From: Candidatus Binatia bacterium
GTDB lineage: Bacteria > Desulfobacterota > Binatia > DP-6
Length of the DNA stretch: 64,000 nt
Reading direction: 5' to 3'
Assembly (NCBI GenBank): GCA_035650655.1
Contig: DASRHG010000027.1
Coordinates: 32,750-96,749, forward strand
The notes below the pieces were generated by a model. The model was given only the letters and a program-made list of their open reading frames with translations. It did not search any database and was not told the DNA's origin. Positions 4,578 to 10,065 of the stretch are shown here, one piece after another (the stretch's first letter is position 1; every line of letters starts with the position of its first letter). The translations under genes and the position numbers were made by a program.

Positions 4578-5933
4578 ATGCGGGGCCGCCTCCTCCTCGT
4601 CGCGCTCGTGCTCGCCTCCGCGCGGCTCGTACGCGCCACCGCCCCCGTCCCGCTCGGTCCGTGCGGCCCGATCCCCCGCCGCTTCGACCCGATCGAGCTG
4701 GAGATCGGGCGGCTCCGGCGCCTCGGCGGCACGCCGATCGCGCACTTGGGCGTCATCGCCTTCCGCGGCGGCCGGCCCGCGCCGATCCCGTTCCAGGTGG
4801 ACGAGCGCGAAGGGCGGAAGCTCGTCCTTCCCGACGGCCCCGAGGCGAACGCCGACAAGCGTCCGGGCGTGCTCGACGCCGACGACGTCCTCGTCTTCCT
4901 GGCCTGCGACGCCGGCGAGCATGCCGGCGCCGACGCCGTCGCGGCGGCGCTCGCGGACGCCGGCACCGTGCACGGGTGGCGCGAGCTCTCGATCGCCGAC
5001 CCGCTCCGCGAGAGGACCGGCTTCGTGTACGTCGTCTCGGCCGACCGGCCGCCCGCGACGGCGCGGCGATACGTCGCCTACGACCCCGCCGTCGACCTCG
5101 TCTCCGCCGCGCGCTTCCGCATCGGGATGGTGGACGCGCTGCCGTCGTACCTCGCGCTCGCGTTCGCGGGGCCGTTCGGGCCGAACCTGCTCGACGGCGC
5201 CCGACTGCGCGCCGAGGCGACGCTCAAGGCGAACCTCGCCCACTGGACGCTCGACGAGTCGCAGGGACGGAACAAGCTGATCGCCTGGAAGGCCGGGGCG
5301 GTGCGCGTCGTCCGCCGCTCGCGGCACGAGGTGTCGATCGGCCTCGGCATCCACCTGACGGCCGGCATCGCGCACACCTACTTCTACGGCGAGCACGTCC
5401 TCTGTCCGGGCTCGATGCGGCTCCCCATCGCCCCCGCGATCTTCTTCCGCGCGATCCGGGCGTTCGGGGGCGCGGACGGACGGAACCTGATCGGCTGGCG
5501 CTATCACGCGGACGGCGTCCCGCCCGCGGGCTTCCTCGTCGACGGCACGATGGACGATGCCGAGCGCGCCTTCGACGGACGCGGCGACTGGTTCGCGCTC
5601 GCGCACGAGCACGAGGCGCTCCTCTTCGTGACGCGCATGAGCGAGGAGCTGGCGCGCGCCGTCGACATCCACCTCGTCTACCGCGACGACGCCTCGAACG
5701 CGCGGCCGCCCGAGAAGGTGCCGGGTCAGGTCCCGCTCGTCGGCTACGAGGGCCGACACGTCGAGGACCTTCCGACGGGCCGCTACCGCTTCCAGCTCTC
5801 GATCTTCGGGCTGTCCGGCTATCGGCGCGGCGACGAGCGGCCGATCCTCGAGAACGTCGACCACCCGCTCACGGCGGACGTCACGGCCGAGTTCCCGCCC
5901 CCGCCCGCCTCAGCCGCGCGGCCGGCCTCGTGA
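4578..5933 (+). CDS. hypothetical secreted protein (451 aa)
   Basis: Signal-like N-terminus MRGRLLLVALVLASARLVRA and balanced amino-acid composition. It lies immediately downstream of the M16 peptidase on the same strand. Confidence 0.6.
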   Translation: MRGRLLLVALVLASARLVRATAPVPLGPCGPIPRRFDPIELEIGRLRRLGGTPIAHLGVIAFRGGRPAPIPFQVDEREGRKLVLPDGPEANADKRPGVLDADDVLVFLACDAGEHAGADAVAAALADAGTVHGWRELSIADPLRERTGFVYVVSADRPPATARRYVAYDPAVDLVSAARFRIGMVDALPSYLALAFAGPFGPNLLDGARLRAEATLKANLAHWTLDESQGRNKLIAWKAGAVRVVRRSRHEVSIGLGIHLTAGIAHTYFYGEHVLCPGSMRLPIAPAIFFRAIRAFGGADGRNLIGWRYHADGVPPAGFLVDGTMDDAERAFDGRGDWFALAHEHEALLFVTRMSEELARAVDIHLVYRDDASNARPPEKVPGQVPLVGYEGRHVEDLPTGRYRFQLSIFGLSGYRRGDERPILENVDHPLTADVTAEFPPPPASAARPAS

Positions 5934-6554
5934 GCGGCGTGCGGACGGGGTCGCGTCCGGCGGGAGCGGCCGGTCGCGGCGCGGCGACGGCTTCCCGCCG
6001 GCCATCTTCTTCTCGTCGAGCACGGCGTGGCGTCCGCCGCCGCTCTTGCGGCCGCCGCCTCCGCCGACCACGTGCCAGCCGTCCGGGCGCTTGCGGTTGT
6101 CGGTGCGCGCGGTGACGCCGCGCTTGCGCGGCTGGCCCGCCACCGCTTCGGTGTGCCGCTGCTCGGTCCGGAGGTCGCGGTCGTGGACGAGGCGGAGCCC
6201 GAGCGCCGTCGCGCGCGCCGCCGCGTCGCCGACCGGCACGCCGGGTTGGAGCCACACGAGGCGGGCACGCTTGGCCGCCGCCGTCTCGAGCGTTCCCGGG
6301 GGCACGGCGCCGGCGACGACGAGGACGACGTCGAGCGAGCCCGGCACGTCGGCGAGGCTCGGCCACGACTTGAGCCCGGCGACGTCCGCGCCGTCCTGGC
6401 GCACCGGGAAGACGTCGAAGCCCTCCACGCGGAGGTAGGGGACGACCGCGCTCGCGGGCGCGCCGCGCCGGGCGCTCGCGCCGACGACCGCGATCGTGCG
6501 CGCCGCGCGCAGCAGCCGCTCGACCTGCGCCTCGTCCCGCGTGAGCCGTCCCAT
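5910..6554 (-). CDS. CoA-binding (YccU/CoA_binding_2-like) domain protein with Gly/Arg/Lys-rich C-terminal tail
   Basis: The internal ATG 6554 lies 2 nt after the upstream stop. It has the Rossmann-like start RTIAVVGAS and a ..VVLVVAG..LVWLQPG.. pattern typical of small CoA-binding proteins. Confidence 0.7.
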   Translation of the reverse strand: MGRLTRDEAQVERLLRAARTIAVVGASARRGAPASAVVPYLRVEGFDVFPVRQDGADVAGLKSWPSLADVPGSLDVVLVVAGAVPPGTLETAAAKRARLVWLQPGVPVGDAAARATALGLRLVHDRDLRTEQRHTEAVAGQPRKRGVTARTDNRKRPDGWHVVGGGGGRKSGGGRHAVLDEKKMAGGKPSPRRDRPLPPDATPSARRSRGRPRG

Positions 6555-6556
6555 CG

Positions 6557-7714
6557 CTAGAAGCGCGCGAGGCCGCCGATTCCGCCCGCGTCGAGGAGAC
6601 GGACGGCCGCCTCCCCGGAGACCTTCTCGACCGTGGCGCCCGCCTCGCCGGCGCGCGTCGCGACGCGCGCGACGAGGTCGTCGAGCGGCAGCACCGGCCC
6701 GCCGCAGTAATCGCACGCCGCGCGCTGCGCCCCGCCGAGCAGCGCGCCGCACCGGCGGCATTCGGCGCCGCGCGACTCGAAGCCGGCCGCGTAGACGAGC
6801 GTCTGGAGGCGTCCCGCCTGAAGCGCGGCGAGCGTCGCGTCGAGCCCGAGGACGCCCGCGTCGAGGACGCGTCCCACGATCGTCGACTCCCCGGCCCGCT
6901 CCGCCCGGGCCGCGGCCTCGCGCGTCTCGCGCCGGATCCGGTCGAGCGGCGCGTCCCCGGGAAGCCGGAGCGTCGCCACGACCCGGGCGGCGAGCGCGCG
7001 GGGCAGGAGGCGGCCGAGCGCCGTCGTCGCCTCGACGGGACCGGCGAGGACCAGCCGGTCGAAGGGCCGCGTGGCGGCCACCTCCTCGAGGAGCGCGATA
7101 ACCTGCTTGAGATGCGCCTGCACGTGGCCTTCGTCCTGGCGCTGGAAGCGCATCTGCGAGCGCCAGTGGTCGGTGCCGCTCGCCTTCTTGTGCCGGACTT
7201 CGTCGGCCGCGAGCGCCTCCCGCACGTCCTCGATCTCACCGAGCCGGATCGTGACGACCCGCGCGCGCTCCTTGTCGACCAGGACCACGACGTACCGCTC
7301 GTGCTCGTCGAGCGCCTCGAGGAGGGGACGAAGGAAGGGGAGCGGCTCCCACCGGACCTCGGTCGCGAGCGGAACGGCGAGGTCGTCGTGCCAGAAGAGC
7401 CCCGCGGAGTCGTCGACGAAGGCGACCAGCGTCTTCGCGCGCGGCTCGATCTCGGCGACGAGGCGCCGGACGCGCTCCGCGTCGGCGCGGAATTCCTCGC
7501 GCGCGCGCTCGTCGAGGCCGTGCTCGATCGCGCGCAGGCGCGCGGTCAGCACGGCCTCGAACTCGCGGTTCAAGTTCTCCGGCCGCGACTGGTCGAGGCT
7601 CAGGTAGACGCTCAGAACCGGGCTCTCGGGCGTCGCCGCGCGGGCGCGAAGGTGCCCCAGCTCTGCCGCGGAGATCATGGGACCGGAGAGTACCGGCTCG
7701 CCGGCGTGCGGCAA
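6557..7714 (-). CDS. bacterial archaeo-eukaryotic release factor 1-like (baeRF1 / Vms1-ANKZF1-like) protein with Zn-ribbon insert
   Basis: 385 aa with a loop HWRSQMRFQRQ at the position of the GGQ/GxxQ loop, a CRRCG...CDYCG zinc ribbon and an eRF1/Pelota domain-3-like end GGIGGLARF. The start is TTG 7714 or ATG 7677. Confidence 0.7.
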   Translation of the reverse strand: MPHAGEPVLSGPMISAAELGHLRARAATPESPVLSVYLSLDQSRPENLNREFEAVLTARLRAIEHGLDERAREEFRADAERVRRLVAEIEPRAKTLVAFVDDSAGLFWHDDLAVPLATEVRWEPLPFLRPLLEALDEHERYVVVLVDKERARVVTIRLGEIEDVREALAADEVRHKKASGTDHWRSQMRFQRQDEGHVQAHLKQVIALLEEVAATRPFDRLVLAGPVEATTALGRLLPRALAARVVATLRLPGDAPLDRIRRETREAAARAERAGESTIVGRVLDAGVLGLDATLAALQAGRLQTLVYAAGFESRGAECRRCGALLGGAQRAACDYCGGPVLPLDDLVARVATRAGEAGATVEKVSGEAAVRLLDAGGIGGLARF

Positions 7715-7736
7715 TTCCCGAAAGGGGCGACCGGCT

Positions 7737-8222
7737 CTAACGGCCGAACACCGCGCGCAACCGCGCGACGAGGGCGTCCGTCAGGTTGCGGACGGGCTGC
7801 CGGTCGCCGCTCGAGAGGTTGGCGATCGTGCCGGCCTCGAGGTTCACGCGCAGCCGCTGCCCCGTGTGGAAGACCGCGGGGGCGTCGACTTCGAGCGGCG
7901 GCAGTCCGGCCGCGAGCACCGCCTCGTCGAAGCCCGGCGCGAAGCTCTGCGCGACAATGGCGATCACCCCCGCGGCCGCGAGCGCACGCGCGGCCGCGGG
8001 CCCCTCCGCGCCCGCGCCGAGGTGTTGTCCCGCGACGAGCACGTCGCCCCGACGAAAGGCGGCGGCGAGCGTCGCGTCGAGGTCTGCGAAGAGCCGGCGC
8101 GCAGCCGCCGCGGCCGGGAGCGCGGCGAACCGCGCGGGCAGAATGTCGGCCGCTGTGAGCCCGTCGGCGAACGCCCACGCGCGGCCGGTGAGCACCGGCA
8201 GGGGTGCCGCGTCCTCGGCCAT
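7737..8222 (-). CDS. LeuD-like aconitase-family swivel-domain protein (degenerate, stand-alone)
   Basis: 161 aa with the pattern GRAWAF.D.. ..DILPA...GDVLVAG..LG.G......ALAAAGV.AIVAQSFA..F.......GLPPLE. The usual GSSRE motif is replaced by GAGAEGP, and no LeuC-like partner is present in the window. Confidence 0.65.
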   Translation of the reverse strand: MAEDAAPLPVLTGRAWAFADGLTAADILPARFAALPAAAAARRLFADLDATLAAAFRRGDVLVAGQHLGAGAEGPAAARALAAAGVIAIVAQSFAPGFDEAVLAAGLPPLEVDAPAVFHTGQRLRVNLEAGTIANLSSGDRQPVRNLTDALVARLRAVFGR

Positions 8223-8237
8223 GCCGCCCGCCCCCGC

Positions 8238-8501
8238 CTATCGATCGCCGGCCACCGCGGCGAGCTGCCAGCGCGGGCCGGGGCGGACGCTCACCACGCG
8301 TCCGGGATGCTTCAGGATGACGCGCGCGTCGTCGACCGTGATGGCGCGCCCGAAGATACGGTAGCGGCCGCGCGCGTCGCGCTGGTTGTTCGCCCACTCG
8401 ACCAGCTCGGCCGGCGTCGGCGGGTGTCCGAGCGCCACGGCGCACTGCCGCACGACGAATCCGAGCATGATCTTGAGCGGCTCGCGCCGTCCGTCCGCCA
8501 T
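8238..8501 (-). CDS. hypothetical 87-aa protein (first gene of the baeRF1 operon)
   Basis: GGGAGAAG lies ~8 nt upstream of ATG 8501. Composition is protein-like and the gene sits 15 nt upstream of the LeuD-like gene. Confidence 0.55.
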   Translation of the reverse strand: MADGRREPLKIMLGFVVRQCAVALGHPPTPAELVEWANNQRDARGRYRIFGRAITVDDARVILKHPGRVVSVRPGPRWQLAAVAGDR

Positions 8502-8601: not shown

Positions 8602-10065
8602 GTGAGCGTCGAAGGCCACGCCGGCCTCGCGGCCTCGCCGACCGGTCGGAGCTTCTCGACGTTCGAGCTCCCCGGGCCGGTTCGCGAGGGCCTCGCCGCC
8701 GCCGGCTTCACCCACTGCACTCCCATCCAGGAGAAGGTCCTCCCGCTCGCGCTCGAGGGCCGCGACGTCGCCGGGCAGGCGCAGACGGGGACCGGCAAGA
8801 CGGCCGCGTTCCTCATCACGATGTTCACCCGGCTCCTCGCGCGGGAGCGCCCCGGGCGCCCTGCCGCGCCGCGCGCGCTCGTCATCGCCCCGACGCGCGA
8901 GCTCGTCGTGCAGATCGCGGAGGAAGCGCGCCTCCTCGGCTCGGCGACGCCGTTCGCGATTCACGCCGTGTACGGCGGCATCGACTACCGCAAGCAGCGC
9001 GAGCAGCTCCAGGGCGGCGTCGACGTGCTCGTCGGGACGCCGGGGCGCCTGATCGACTACTTCAAGCAGCGCGTGTTCGACCTGCGGAGCGTCGAGGTCC
9101 TCGTGATCGACGAGGCCGACCGCATGTTCGACATGGGGTTCATCAAGGACCTGCGGTACATCCTCCGCCAGCTCCCGCCCGTCGAGCGGCGGCAGTCGAT
9201 GCTCTTCTCGGCGACGCTCAGCTACGAGGTCATGGAGCTCGCCTACGTCTTCATGAACGACGCCGTGCGCGTCGCCGTCACGCCGGAGCAGGTGACCGCG
9301 GAGAAGGTGGAGCACCTCGTCTACCACGTCGGCGTGCACGAGAAGCTCGGCCTCCTCGTCGGGCTGCTCCGGCGCTGGCCCGAAGGCCGCGTCCTCGTCT
9401 TCGTCAACATGCGGCGCACGGCGGAGCGGCTGGAGCGTACGCTCGAGGCGAACCGTTTCGCCGCCGCCGCGATCACCGGCGAAGTCGACCAGCGGCGCCG
9501 CCTGCGGATCCTCGCCGACTTCAAGGAGGGCCGGCTGCCCATCCTGATCGCGACCGACGTGGCCTCGCGCGGCCTCCACATCGAGGGCGTGACGCACGTC
9601 GTGAACTACGACCTCCCGCTCGATCCCGAGGACTACGTGCACCGCGTGGGGCGCACGGCGCGCGCCGGCGCGTCGGGCAACGCGGTGAGCCTCGCGTGCG
9701 AGCAGTACGTCGAGGGCCTCGAGGCGATCGAGAAGTACATCGGCTTCAAGCTCCCCTGGGAGATCGCCGACGAGAGCGTGATCGCGCACGACGTGAAGCA
9801 CGCGCCGCGCGGCGAGCACGGCGCCGGCGCCGGCCGAACGGGCCGCGACCGGGGCCGCGGCCGGGGGCGCGCGCATGGTCACGGGTCCGCGCACCGCGAG
9901 CGCCCGCGCCCCCATGCGACGCCGGAGGCGGCGCCACCCGCGGGACACGCGGCCCCCCCGGCAGGTGCGGCCAGCGGCAACGGCTCGAGCGGCGCGCCCG
10001 GCAAGCGGCGCCGTCGCCGACGCCGCCGTGGCCGGCGCGGCCCGGCGACCCCCCCGGCCGGCTAG
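8602..10065 (+). CDS. DEAD-box ATP-dependent RNA helicase with Arg/Gly-rich C-terminal tail
   Basis: Q-motif region (FTHCTPIQ), motif I AQTGTGKT, motif II VIDEADRM, SAT, and HRVGRTARAG. GTG 8602 is preceded by GGGAGGGA (8593-8600). Confidence 0.92.
   Translation: MSVEGHAGLAASPTGRSFSTFELPGPVREGLAAAGFTHCTPIQEKVLPLALEGRDVAGQAQTGTGKTAAFLITMFTRLLARERPGRPAAPRALVIAPTRELVVQIAEEARLLGSATPFAIHAVYGGIDYRKQREQLQGGVDVLVGTPGRLIDYFKQRVFDLRSVEVLVIDEADRMFDMGFIKDLRYILRQLPPVERRQSMLFSATLSYEVMELAYVFMNDAVRVAVTPEQVTAEKVEHLVYHVGVHEKLGLLVGLLRRWPEGRVLVFVNMRRTAERLERTLEANRFAAAAITGEVDQRRRLRILADFKEGRLPILIATDVASRGLHIEGVTHVVNYDLPLDPEDYVHRVGRTARAGASGNAVSLACEQYVEGLEAIEKYIGFKLPWEIADESVIAHDVKHAPRGEHGAGAGRTGRDRGRGRGRAHGHGSAHRERPRPHATPEAAPPAGHAAPPAGAASGNGSSGAPGKRRRRRRRRGRRGPATPPAG

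What the first reader, a model, noticed from the sequence alone, without database searches (positions are those of the whole stretch)
5910..8501. Four-gene operon built around a bacterial aeRF1-like (baeRF1/Vms1-like) protein
Seen in the sequence, minus strand. The first gene encodes an 87-aa protein with an SD sequence GGGAGAAG. After a 15-nt gap comes a 161-aa stand-alone LeuD-like swivel domain whose conserved GSSRE motif is replaced (..AGQHLGAGAEGPAA..). After a 22-nt gap comes a 385-aa protein with eRF1/Pelota-like features. These are the loop HWRSQMRFQRQ where GGQ/GxxQ sits, a CRRCG..CDYCG zinc ribbon and the C-terminus GGIGGLARF. After a 2-nt gap comes a CoA-binding Rossmann protein with a Gly/Arg/Lys-rich tail. 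The operon diverges, across a 100-nt gap, from a DEAD-box RNA helicase that has an Arg-rich tail. Established knowledge: the aeRF1 superfamily includes eRF1, Pelota/Dom34 and the Vms1/ANKZF1 peptidyl-tRNA hydrolases. Bacterial branches (baeRF1) have been described computationally, but to my knowledge lack experimental function. Inference: this may be a ribosome-rescue or peptidyl-tRNA-processing module with unusual partners. A catalytically degenerate aconitase-swivel domain and a CoA-binding protein are not standard translation factors, so the combination deserves attention.
Basis: partly seen in the sequence, partly recalled or inferred. Interest (0 to 1): 0.7.

Follow-up and report, generated by a model that had tools for sequence, protein, structure and literature searches.

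The report
Balon-like factor with CoA-binding partner
The four genes are real, but only two belong together: a bacterial relative of the release factor eRF1 (closest solved relative: the ribosome hibernation factor Balon) and a CoA-binding protein with a rare conserved basic tail, which were inserted next to an unrelated LeuD-like gene pair.

Summary
Four same-strand genes lie at 5910-8501 (minus) with the stated sizes and gaps. One correction: the aeRF1-like gene starts at the ATG at 7678 (373 aa, not 385).

The 373-aa protein is in the aeRF1 superfamily:
- Pfam baeRF_family10, E=2e-34.
- Best solved relative is Msmeg1130/Balon on the 70S ribosome (profile E=1.6e-32; Foldseek TM 0.72-0.75).

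Two parts of the interpretation fail.
- **Not a conserved four-gene unit.** Related Binatia genomes keep helicase | 85-aa | LeuD-like | 450-aa gene without the aeRF1-like and CoA genes. None of about 75 other family-10 loci has a LeuD-like or 87-aa homologue.
- **The RSQ Gln is not a conserved catalytic Gln.** It lies two residues after the GGQ Gln position. It is Q in only 68% of 147 homologues. It is H, D or A in three close orthologues.

The "no experimental function" premise is also outdated (Balon, Nature 2024).

What is conserved is a two-gene cassette. The family-10 protein is followed, 2-4 nt away or overlapping, by a CoA_binding_2 protein with a disordered Gly/Arg/Lys tail of about 75 aa. 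That tail occurs only in this subfamily (44 hits in 1.84 billion representatives). Sister loci carry HPF/RaiA instead.

Best reading: a Balon-type ribosome-silencing module with a new partner.

The parts
6557..7678 (-). 373-aa bacterial aeRF1-superfamily protein (Pfam baeRF_family10) with three domains. It is the core of the cassette.
   Evidence: Pfam E=2.3e-34. The NCBIfam MSMEG_1130-family ribosome hibernation factor model matches full length at E=1e-27 and 97 bits, against a cut-off of 480. PDB profile search gives 8v9j_z Balon/Msmeg1130 at E=1.6e-32. The AF2 model has pLDDT 87.4. Foldseek gives 8v9j/8v9l at TM 0.72-0.75, then aRF1/eRF1, P. urativorans Balon and Rv2629. The start at the ATG 7678 follows from homologues.
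7139..7177 (-). Loop and helix-start motif GTDHWRSQMRFQR, at the site of the eRF1 GGQ loop. There is no GGQ.
   Evidence: Alignment to eRF1 and aRF1 puts GGQ-S-A-L-R-F-A-R opposite H-W-R173-S174-Q175-M-R-F-Q-R. Conservation in 147 sequences: G168 97%, S174 88%, R180 84%, Q175 68%. Q175 is H, D or A in three orthologues of at least 58% identity. In the model, 163-168 have pLDDT below 50 and the helix starts at 171.
6704..6760 (-). Four-Cys zinc ribbon (C307, C310, C322, C325) inserted in the C-terminal domain, as in archaeal aRF1.
   Evidence: Each Cys is present in 133-134 of 147 homologues. The ribbon aligns with the aRF1 4af1 zinc ribbon, and Msmeg1130 lacks the Cys.
6141..6554 (-). CoA_binding_2 Rossmann domain (residues 1-138) of the 214-aa partner protein. 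Its start lies 2 nt after the aeRF1-like stop.
   Evidence: Pfam E=9e-21. AF2 pLDDT is above 90 over 1-140. Foldseek best matches are TT1466 1iuk, PH1109 2d59 and 2duw, with TM normalised to target 0.73-0.84.
5910..6140 (-). Conserved, predicted-disordered Gly/Arg/Lys-rich tail (residues 139-214) plus stop. Homologue consensus: AGQPRKRGV..RKR.YEDDRKR..GGGGG.KGGGG.HAVLDEKKMVGGKPSPRRG.
   Evidence: Tail alignment. No Pfam or NCBIfam family matches. pLDDT is 45-66. The tail profile finds 44 proteins in 1.84 billion representatives; all nine inspected are CoA_binding_2 C-termini or fragments.
7679..7736 (-). 58-nt spacer between the LeuD-like stop and the aeRF1-like ATG. It is the upstream junction of the inserted cassette.
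   Evidence: Sequence. No promoter or terminator consensus and no flanking repeats were found.
7737..8222 (-). 161-aa stand-alone LeuD-like swivel domain with a degenerate GSSRE motif. It is a neighbour of the cassette, not a conserved partner.
   Evidence: LEUD_arch E=1e-20, below its cut-off. More than 444 homologues were found; the 120 listed are 72-88% identical. The gene occurs with the same neighbours but without the cassette in L076, L077/78 and L079.
8238..8501 (-). 87-aa protein of unknown family, conserved as the upstream gene of the LeuD-like gene. It is not a partner of the aeRF1-like protein.
   Evidence: No Pfam, NCBIfam or PADLOC hit. 85-96-aa orthologues lie directly upstream of the LeuD-like gene in L076, L077 and L079.

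Best explanation
The locus is a composite of two independent two-gene modules that are probably co-transcribed in this Binatia genome.

**The functional unit.** It is the cassette at 5910-7678. It encodes a 373-aa baeRF-1 family-10 protein and a translationally coupled CoA_binding_2 protein with a basic disordered tail of about 75 aa.

**Proposed mechanism (inferred).** Under stress, the family-10 protein acts like Balon/Msmeg1130. It enters the ribosomal A site, probably with EF-Tu on its C-terminal domain. Its N domain sits at the decoding centre and its conserved GTDHxRSQ..FQR loop and helix sit at the peptidyl-transferase centre. This blocks translation without a GGQ-type hydrolysis. The tailed CoA-binding protein is the second component. 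Its conserved tail probably becomes ordered on rRNA or on the factor. It fills the role that HPF/RaiA fills in sister loci, and it may couple silencing to CoA or acyl-CoA status.

**What is shown and what is inferred.** Shown: homology, fold, motif conservation, gene linkage, and the insertion of the cassette. Inferred: ribosome binding, the non-catalytic mode, and any role of the tail or of CoA.

The LeuD-like and 87-aa genes are neighbours only because the cassette landed between them and the convergent 451-aa gene.
For: **Fold and homology**
- Pfam baeRF_family10.
- The best NCBIfam model is the MSMEG_1130-family ribosome hibernation factor, matched full length.
- The best solved relative by sequence profile and by structure is Msmeg1130/Balon bound to 70S.

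**Loop**
- No GGQ and no NIKS are present.
- The GGQ Gln position is R173.
- Q175 is variable even among close orthologues.

**Context of family-10 genes elsewhere**
- An HPF/S30AE gene lies directly upstream in L001, L002, L007, L009, L010 and L072. One is also adjacent, on the opposite strand, on the P0018 contig.
- BON, PsiE and HdeA flank the gene in Ca. Binatus.
- ClpB, ClpP, Hsp20, Lon and DnaJ flank it in Blastocatellia.
- These are the kinds of stress-gene neighbours (RaiA, Hsp20, DnaK/DnaJ, OsmY, HdeD) reported for Balon (PMC10901736) and for baeRF-1 (PMC6514570).

**Partner linkage**
- The tailed CoA gene lies directly downstream in L060/62/63, L061/64/80, L065, L066 and L082.
- It overlaps by 4 nt a family-10 gene that is only 29% identical to this one (L081).
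- The tail occurs only in this subfamily.
- Loci with HPF lack the CoA gene and vice versa.

**Insertion**
- L076, L077/78 and L079 have helicase | 85-aa | LeuD-like | 450-aa gene with overlapping 3' ends and no cassette.
Against: - No experiment exists for any family-10 protein.
- The score to the MSMEG_1130 model is far below its cut-off (97 against 480 bits), so this is not an orthologue of a tested Balon.
- The loop motif is much better conserved than in most baeRF-1 families. Its length is narrow: 22-23 residues in 119 of 147 sequences. Burroughs and Aravind (PMC6514570) associate this pattern with catalytic families, and they single out family 10 as possibly active.
- The HPF-or-CoA alternation rests on about 7 loci of each kind, several on short contigs.
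- One tailed CoA gene follows a LonC-like gene, and the next gene is cut off (P0236).
- Three close family-10 loci have neither partner (L068-L070).
- Nothing shows that the Rossmann domain here binds CoA.
Confidence: 0.55

Rival explanations
1. The family-10 protein is an active peptidyl-tRNA hydrolase or ribosome-rescue factor, as in the first reader's reading. It would use the conserved loop (Q175, or D170/H171) to release nascent chains from stalled ribosomes. The released chains might feed the neighbouring proteases and chaperones seen in other lineages.
For: - PMC6514570 names family 10 as the baeRF-1 family with a conserved Gln that could be catalytic.
- S174-Q175 is in register with the Gln of the GGxSQ motif that paper reports for aVLRF-1 and acVLRF-1 (register).
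- The loop motif is strongly conserved and its length is tightly constrained.
- ClpP, Lon, ClpB and HtrA-like genes flank family-10 genes in Blastocatellia and Chloroflexi.
Against: - Q175 is Q in only 100 of 147 sequences. It is H, D or A in three orthologues of at least 58% identity in which every flanking motif residue is invariant.
- The canonical Gln position holds R, W or L.
- There is no Gly pair and no G at -3, so it is not GxuQ.
- The model places RSQ in the first turn of the helix, not at a loop tip.
- The closest solved relatives are non-catalytic hibernation factors.
- HPF neighbours fit silencing better than rescue.
Confidence: 0.22
2. All four genes form one functional system, as in the first reader's headline. 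The degenerate LeuD-like swivel domain and the 87-aa protein would work with the aeRF1-like factor.
For: In this genome the four genes share a strand with gaps of 15, 58 and 2 nt. No terminator-like site lies between them. Co-transcription is therefore plausible.
Against: - The 87-aa plus LeuD-like pair is conserved without the cassette in at least three other genome contexts.
- No homologue of either gene occurs in 59 genome loci or in about 16 metagenome loci carrying family-10 genes.
- The LeuD-like family is far more conserved (72-88% identity among the 120 listed of more than 444 homologues) than the family-10 protein (at most 65%). This indicates a separate evolutionary history.
Confidence: 0.05
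3. The CoA-binding gene is an ordinary metabolic neighbour with a low-complexity tail. The family-10 protein acts alone.
For: Stand-alone CoA_binding_2 proteins are common and of unknown role. The tail is predicted to be disordered. Three close family-10 loci lack the gene.
Against: - Adjacency with a 2-4 nt gap or an overlap is kept across 42-64% identity in the CoA protein and down to 29% identity in the factor.
- The tail is conserved in sequence, with 18 invariant columns.
- The tail is found almost nowhere else: 44 hits in 1.84 billion representatives.
Confidence: 0.12

Closest known systems
Balon / Msmeg1130 / Rv2629 ribosome hibernation factors (Helena-Bueno et al., Nature 2024, PMC10901736; PDB 8v9j, 8v9l, 8v9k, 8rd8, 8rdw)
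   Same: - Bacterial aeRF1-superfamily protein with the same three domains.
- No GGQ and no NIKS.
- Best sequence-profile and structure match: E=1.6e-32 and TM 0.72-0.75.
- Family-10 genes lie next to HPF/RaiA, Hsp20, BON/OsmY-type and Hde-type stress genes.
   Different: - Only about 22% identity.
- Far below the NCBIfam cut-offs for both the MSMEG_1130 and the Rv2629 families.
- Keeps an intact four-Cys zinc ribbon where Msmeg1130 has none.
- Keeps the eRF1-like S-x-x-R-F-x-R helix and a strongly conserved loop, rather than a poorly conserved lasso loop.
- No conserved His-Pro dipeptide appears in the N-domain consensus.
- Has a tailed CoA-binding partner that no paper I found describes for Balon.
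baeRF-1 family 10 (Burroughs and Aravind 2019, PMC6514570; Pfam PF18854)
   Same: Direct member, E=2.3e-34 and 119 bits against a cut-off of 27.1. It has the three-domain architecture with a zinc ribbon and the Gln-containing loop that the paper highlights.
   Different: That paper treats the Gln as well conserved and possibly catalytic. Here it is 68% conserved and is replaceable in close orthologues. A term search of the paper's main text found no mention of 'CoA-binding'.
Archaeal/eukaryotic aRF1/eRF1 (for example PDB 4af1, 3e20, 1dt9)
   Same: Same fold, E about 1e-10. The helix after the catalytic loop is in register: SALRFARLR..H..VRKV against SQMRFQRQD..H..LKQV. The zinc ribbon resembles that of aRF1. 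The C-terminal strand GGIGGLARF matches GGIGAVMRY of the S. pombe eRF1 chain 3e20.
   Different: GGQ is replaced by H-W-R. There is no NIKS, the N domain is shorter, and the gene sits in a bacterial stress context.
Stand-alone CoA-binding proteins TT1466 (1iuk), PH1109 (2d59), YccU-type (2duw); Pfam CoA_binding_2
   Same: The Rossmann domain of residues 1-138 matches at TM 0.73-0.84 normalised to the target, with 31-32% identity.
   Different: Those proteins are 133-145 aa and have no tail. This subfamily adds a conserved basic Gly-rich extension of about 75 aa and is linked to baeRF genes.
Energy-sensor hibernation factors of Archaea (HPF fused to CBS modules: HibA, PMC13324472; AHA, PMC12934967)
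   Same: The concept is similar: a ribosome-silencing element joined to a small-molecule-binding module. This is an analogy only, taken from the abstracts.
   Different: There is no homology. Here the ligand-binding module is a CoA-type Rossmann domain on a separate protein, and its sensing role is untested.

Membership tests
aeRF1 superfamily (eRF1 / Pelota / baeRF-1 fold) | Three-domain architecture with a central RNase-H-like M domain and a Pelota-type C domain, recognisable by profile and by structure. | tested here: met
   Pfam baeRF_family10. PDB profile hits to Balon, eRF1, aRF1 and Pelota. Foldseek probability is 1.00 to all of these.
baeRF-1 family 10 (PF18854) | Score above the Pfam gathering threshold (27.1 bits). 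| tested here: met
   119.2 bits, E=2.3e-34, covering model positions 1-142 of 143.
Catalytic class-I release factor / peptidyl hydrolase (eRF1, Vms1 type) | Invariant catalytic Gln preceded by small residues (GGQ, GxuQ or GGxSQ) at the tip of the M-domain loop. | tested here: not met
   The GGQ Gln position is R173. Q175 is Q in 68% of 147 sequences and is H, D or A in close orthologues. There is no Gly pair. Only the S-Q dipeptide agrees with GGxSQ.
Catalytic class-I release factor (eRF1/aRF1) | Stop-codon recognition motifs in the N domain (NIKS, YxCxxxF, GTS). | tested here: not met
   None of these motifs appears in the family consensus. The N domain is about 115 aa, and the only conserved polar patch is D29-Q30..N35-L-N-R38.
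Balon / MSMEG_1130-family ribosome hibernation factor (NCBIfam NF052288) | Score above the curated equivalog cut-off (480 bits). | tested here: not met
   97.1 bits, E=1e-27, full-length alignment. It is homologous but not an equivalog.
Balon-type hibernation factor (functional class) | Absence of GGQ and NIKS in an otherwise complete aeRF1 scaffold. | tested here: met
Balon-type hibernation factor (functional class) | HP motif at the decoding centre, lasso loop around A2602, and the bL27 trap (PMC10901736). | tested here: inconclusive
   No conserved His-Pro is present in the N-domain consensus. Msmeg1130 'IHP' aligns with 'LRP' (R117-P118) here, but I could not confirm that this is the published HP motif. 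The loop equivalent is low-confidence in the model. The bL27 trap could not be mapped.
Balon-type hibernation factor (functional class) | mRNA-independent binding to the 70S A site, recruitment of EF-Tu, and inhibition of translation. | not testable with these tools
   This needs biochemistry or cryo-EM.
Balon-type hibernation factor (functional class) | Genomic association with HPF/RaiA and stress-response genes. | tested here: met
   This is met for the family: HPF is adjacent in 7 loci, and BON, HdeA, PsiE, Hsp20, ClpB, ClpP, Lon and DnaJ are neighbours. In this window the neighbours are the CoA partner and unrelated genes, and no HPF lies in the 64 kb.
CoA_binding_2 (PF13380) | Score above the gathering threshold, and the Rossmann fold of TT1466/PH1109. 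| tested here: met
   74.9 bits against 22.8. Foldseek TM normalised to target is 0.82-0.84. CoA binding itself was not tested.
LeuD / aconitase small subunit (3-isopropylmalate dehydratase) | The conserved GSSRE substrate-binding motif, a score above the family cut-offs, and an adjacent LeuC-type large subunit. | tested here: not met
   The motif reads GAGAEG. LEUD_arch scores 74 against 109 bits and leuD scores 61 against 246 bits. No large-subunit gene lies beside it here or in L076-L079.

The most novel reading that the evidence does not exclude
The family-10 aeRF1-like factor and the tailed CoA-binding protein form a previously undescribed two-component ribosome-silencing system. In it, the conserved disordered tail replaces HPF/RaiA on the ribosome, and the Rossmann domain gates silencing by CoA or acyl-CoA status. 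This would be a bacterial counterpart of the CBS-coupled archaeal hibernation factors.
Probability: 0.2. Interest if true: 0.75.

Novelty: new variant of a known kind. Interest (0 to 1): 0.45.

Why it matters
[quoted passage not shown] The Nature 2024 paper finds homologues in about 20% of the bacterial species it analysed. It is not known how their binding is switched on and off.

A conserved, translationally coupled partner that combines a metabolite-binding Rossmann domain with a ribosome-protein-like basic tail, and that appears where HPF/RaiA appears in sister loci, gives a concrete and testable candidate for a regulator or co-factor.

The locus also bears on an open question from Burroughs and Aravind: is baeRF-1 family 10 catalytic? 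The variability of the supposed catalytic Gln argues that it is not.

The result also warns against reading same-strand clusters as functional operons. Half of this 'operon' is an unrelated, separately conserved gene pair.

Tried and rejected
- **Four-gene co-conservation.** I ran phmmer with the 87-aa, LeuD-like and CoA proteins against all ORFs of 59 genome loci and 14 metagenome loci. There were no LeuD-like or 87-aa hits. The four-gene unit is rejected.
- **Insertion scars.** I looked for direct or inverted repeats flanking the cassette and for promoter or terminator consensus sites. Nothing was usable.
- **Compositional sign of transfer.** GC3 of the cassette genes is 0.944-0.949, inside the range of the flanking genes, 0.91-0.97. 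This is uninformative.
- **Anti-phage defence.** There are no PADLOC hits for any of five proteins.
- **Known family for the tail.** There are no Pfam or NCBIfam hits at E up to 10, apart from a chance MbtH match at E=0.26.
- **Mapping the Balon HP motif.** A PDB search with the N domain alone gave only a chance hit.
- **First scan attempt.** I repeated it with 20 sequences.
- **Literature.** 'baeRF1' as a word gave nothing. 'Balon' plus 'CoA-binding' gave only an unrelated paper. The Burroughs supplement is not held as text.
- **Vms1-like assignment.** The acVLRF1 model scores E=0.0025, below its threshold. Rejected.

Full report
**1. What is in the sequence**

The window is about 75% G+C. 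The exact protein match shows it comes from a Candidatus Binatia metagenome-assembled genome.

On the minus strand between 5910 and 8501 there are four consecutive ORFs. Independent gene calls on the source contig give the same four genes, of 87, 161, 373 and 214 aa.

- GGGAGAAG lies upstream of the ATG at 8501.
- There is a 15-nt gap to the 161-aa gene.
- There is a 2-nt gap (TAG-CG-ATG) between the third and fourth genes.
- There is a 100-nt divergent spacer to a DEAD-box helicase whose called start is the GTG at 8602.

One detail needs correction. The 385-aa reading of the third gene starts at a TTG at 7714. Every homologue and the deposited annotation start at 'MIS..', the ATG at 7678, giving 373 aa. 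The spacer after the LeuD-like gene is therefore 58 nt, not 22.

The fourth gene's 3' end overlaps a convergent 451-aa gene (4578-5933, plus strand) by 24 nt.

**2. Identity of the four proteins**

- **87-aa protein.** It matches no Pfam, NCBIfam or PADLOC family.
- **161-aa protein.** It is LeuD-like (TIGR02087 LEUD_arch E=1e-20; Pfam Aconitase_C E=1e-4). It falls below every curated LeuD or homoaconitase cut-off. It reads GAGAEG where LeuD has GSSRE.
- **373-aa protein.** It is a clear member of Pfam baeRF_family10 (E=2.3e-34, 119 bits against a cut-off of 27).
- **214-aa protein.** It has a CoA_binding_2 domain over residues 19-126 (E=9e-21).

**3. The aeRF1-like protein**

A profile of 33 family members was searched against all PDB sequences. 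The best hit is the 'Ribosome hibernation factor Balon (MSMEG_1130)', chain 8v9j_z, aligned end to end at E=1.6e-32. Next come eRF1 and aRF1 (about 1e-10), Rv2629/Balon (1e-9) and Pelota (8e-8).

An AlphaFold2 model built with that alignment is confident: mean pLDDT 87.4 and pTM 0.67. Foldseek against the PDB ranks Msmeg1130 on the M. smegmatis 70S ribosome first (E=9e-24, TM 0.72-0.75). It is followed by aRF1, eRF1, P. urativorans Balon and Rv2629.

The protein is inside the aeRF1 fold, and its nearest solved relatives are ribosome-bound hibernation factors.

NCBIfam agrees in kind but not in degree. The MSMEG_1130-family model is the best hit over the full length (E=1e-27), but at 97 bits against a cut-off of 480. 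This is a separate family from the tested proteins.

**4. Is the Gln of 'RSQ' the catalytic Gln?**

Two independent HMM alignments, to S. pombe eRF1 3e20 and to archaeal aRF1 4af1, put the eRF1 string G-G-Q-S-A-L-R-F-A-R opposite H-W-R173-S174-Q175-M-R-F-Q-R. The serine and the R-F-x-R of the following helix match in register. The GGQ glutamine falls on R173, and Q175 lies two residues further on.

In the model the helix begins at residue 171, so R-S-Q is in its first turn rather than at a loop tip.

In 147 non-identical family-10 sequences, conservation is G168 97%, S174 88% and R180 84%. Q175 is Q in only 68%, with E 11%, N 6%, and also D, A, H and S.

The 19 closest sequences (at least 55% identity) give the clearest result. 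In these, R173, S174, M176, Q179, R180 and D182 are invariant. Q175 is nevertheless replaced by H, D and A in three of them. A catalytic Gln would not behave this way.

Two points remain in favour of catalysis. S-Q is in register with the GGxSQ motif that Burroughs and Aravind report for aVLRF-1 and acVLRF-1. The loop length is tightly constrained, at 22-23 residues in 119 of 147 sequences, which those authors associate with active families. They name family 10 as potentially active. I keep this as the main rival at about 0.2.

The family also keeps ancestral aRF1 features that Msmeg1130 has lost or lacks:
- A four-Cys zinc ribbon, with each Cys in 133-134 of 147 sequences.
- The C-terminal strand GGIG.xLRF.

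**5. Are the four genes a conserved unit? No.**

A scan of one genome per species returned 59 loci with family-10 genes. They come from Acidobacteria/Blastocatellia, Nitrospira, Chloroflexi, Syntrophobacterales, Binatia and others. None contains a homologue of the 87-aa, LeuD-like or CoA-binding proteins (confirmed for the CoA protein at profile level).

A metagenome scan for close relatives (52-68% identity), together with direct look-ups, gave 14 more loci. Again there was no LeuD-like or 87-aa homologue.

I then approached from the other side. The LeuD-like protein has more than 444 homologues, and the 120 listed are 72-88% identical. It is far better conserved than the family-10 protein, whose best relative is 65% identical.

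In three independent contexts (L076, L077/L078, L079) the arrangement is DEAD-box helicase (divergent) | 85-96-aa protein | LeuD-like | about 450-aa protein (convergent, 3' ends overlapping). An M16 peptidase gene follows in two of the three contexts. Alignments confirm orthology of all three proteins with those of the window.

This is the synteny of the window, minus the aeRF1-like and CoA genes. The window is therefore best read as that conserved backbone with a two-gene cassette inserted between the LeuD-like gene and the 451-aa gene. I found no repeats at the junctions, no promoter or terminator consensus, and no compositional difference. The mechanism and age of the insertion are unknown.

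**6. What is conserved: the aeRF1-like gene plus a tailed CoA-binding gene**

A CoA_binding_2 gene lies directly downstream of the family-10 gene in these loci:
- L060/L062/L063.
- L061/L064/L080 (Candidatus Binatus).
- L065 and L066.
- L082, where the upstream fragment ends ..GGIGAILRF*, the family-10 C-terminus.
- L081, where it overlaps by 4 nt a family-10 gene that is only 29% identical to the window's.

These partners are 185-219 aa, against 133-145 aa for ordinary CoA_binding_2 proteins. The extra length is a C-terminal extension with 18 invariant columns. Its consensus is AGQPRKRGV..RKR.YEDDRKR..GGGGG.KGGGG.HAVLDEKKMVGGKPSPRRG.

The extension matches no Pfam or NCBIfam family. A profile of the tail alone finds only 44 proteins (25 at E of 1e-10 or better) among 1.84 billion representatives. 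All nine that I inspected are C-termini of CoA_binding_2 proteins, or fragments or frameshifted versions of them.

AlphaFold2 models the Rossmann domain with pLDDT above 90 and leaves residues 141-214 at 45-66, which is a disordered prediction. The domain superposes on TT1466, PH1109 and a YccU-type protein. Sequence-conserved but disordered basic tails are typical of segments that fold onto RNA or onto a partner. That reading is an inference.

There are exceptions. Three close family-10 loci (L068-L070) have no such partner. One tailed CoA gene follows a LonC-like protease gene, with the next gene cut off.

**7. Context of family-10 genes elsewhere**

- An HPF/RaiA-type (S30AE) gene lies immediately upstream on the same strand in L001, L002, L007, L009 (a Binatia genome), L010 and L072. 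One is also adjacent, on the opposite strand, on the P0018 contig, next to a CBS gene.
- None of these loci has the tailed CoA gene, and none of the CoA-bearing loci has HPF.
- In Candidatus Binatus the pair is flanked by BON, DUF5335, PsiE and HdeA genes.
- In Blastocatellia the gene lies in ClpB | 110-aa unknown | family-10 | ClpP | Hsp20 | Lon, with DnaJ upstream.

These are the kinds of stress-gene neighbours (RaiA, Hsp20, DnaK/DnaJ, OsmY, HdeD) reported for Balon genes. The HPF link matches the one reported for baeRF-1 families.

**8. Most likely mechanism**

*Shown:*
- An aeRF1-fold protein whose nearest solved relatives block the ribosomal A site.
- No GGQ or NIKS.
- A variable 'catalytic' Gln.
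- Family-level linkage to HPF and stress genes.
- Tight linkage to a tailed CoA-binding protein.

*Inferred:*
- The protein occupies the A site of 70S ribosomes under stress, probably with EF-Tu on its C domain as for Balon (PMC10901736). It silences and protects ribosomes without releasing the nascent chain.
- The partner's basic tail binds rRNA or the factor in place of HPF/RaiA.
- The Rossmann domain may tie this to CoA or acyl-CoA levels.

I put about 0.55 on this reading. I put about 0.2 on an active hydrolase or rescue factor. The rest goes to the CoA gene being incidental or to something else. The claim that the LeuD-like and 87-aa genes are not functional partners I hold at about 0.9.

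**9. Comparison with what is known, and novelty**

The central protein is a member of a computationally defined family (baeRF-1 family 10, PMC6514570). It is a distant homologue of the experimentally characterised Balon/Msmeg1130/Rv2629 factors (PMC10901736). The premise that bacterial aeRF1 branches lack experimental function is therefore outdated.

It fails the membership tests for catalytic release factors (no GGQ-type Gln, no NIKS). It also fails the MSMEG_1130 equivalog test (score). It works most like a Balon-type factor while keeping more aRF1-like features.

The apparently new element is the tailed CoA_binding_2 partner and its seeming alternation with HPF. I found no paper linking Balon or baeRF-1 to a CoA-binding protein. 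The literature tool does not cover everything, and the Burroughs supplement was not available.

Verdict: a new variant of a known kind, of moderate interest. The headline four-gene operon is a juxtaposition.

Noticed in passing
window 7737-8501 (minus); L076 4738-5483; L077 4743-5495; L079 4706-5483: An 85-96-aa protein of no known family and a stand-alone LeuD-like swivel domain form a tightly coupled, conserved pair in Binatia-like genomes. The GSSRE motif of the LeuD-like protein is conservatively degenerate (GAGAEG, GAGPEG or GVGPGG). More than 444 homologues were found, and the 120 listed are 72-88% identical. No LeuC-type large subunit lies beside it. Public annotations call it 3-isopropylmalate dehydratase small subunit, which is probably wrong.
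   Followed up: partly
window 4578-5933 (plus); L076 5437-6786; L077 5443-6795; L079 5437-6774: A protein of about 450 aa with a signal-peptide-like N-terminus has no Pfam, NCBIfam or PADLOC match. It is conserved next to the LeuD-like gene. In the relatives its 3' end overlaps that gene by about 50 nt in convergent orientation. In the window it instead overlaps the CoA gene's extended tail by 24 nt.
   Followed up: partly
L011-L039 (Blastocatellia loci), about -3 kb to +4 kb around the family-10 gene at 6001-7134: The family-10 gene lies in a conserved proteostasis cluster: DnaJ ... ClpB | 110-aa protein with no Pfam match (16 loci, directly upstream on the same strand) | baeRF_family10 | ClpP | Hsp20 | Lon. 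The 110-aa protein could be another lineage-specific partner.
   Followed up: partly
L081 189-2026: A 403-aa baeRF_family10 protein is only 29% identical to the window's. Its loop reads ..AGERWGKQQATIARHR.., with GKQ lined up by eye with GGQ. It still overlaps a tailed CoA_binding_2 gene by 4 nt. The family is therefore heterogeneous in the loop but constant in the partner.
   Followed up: no
window 8602-10065 (plus): The DEAD-box helicase that diverges from the 87-aa gene has a long Arg/Gly-rich C-terminal tail ending in a run of eight arginines (..[13 protein letters not shown]..). This helicase is the conserved divergent neighbour of the 87-aa/LeuD-like pair in L076 and L079. In L077 the equivalent 506-aa gene has no Pfam hit on record.
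   Followed up: no
L076 2811-3236: In a Binatia genome that lacks the cassette, an ordinary tail-less CoA_binding_2 gene (141 aa, 39% identical to the window's domain) sits on the far side of the same DEAD-box helicase.
   Followed up: no
L001 4591-5664, L002 4584-5684, L007 2423-3511, L010 4752-5933, L072 13-1506: The HPF-like ORFs directly upstream of family-10 genes are long: 358-498 codons from stop to stop. Each has the S30AE domain near the N-terminus. They may be the long or chimeric HPF forms that a 2025 preprint reports next to Balon genes (10.1101/2025.11.04.686544).
   Followed up: no
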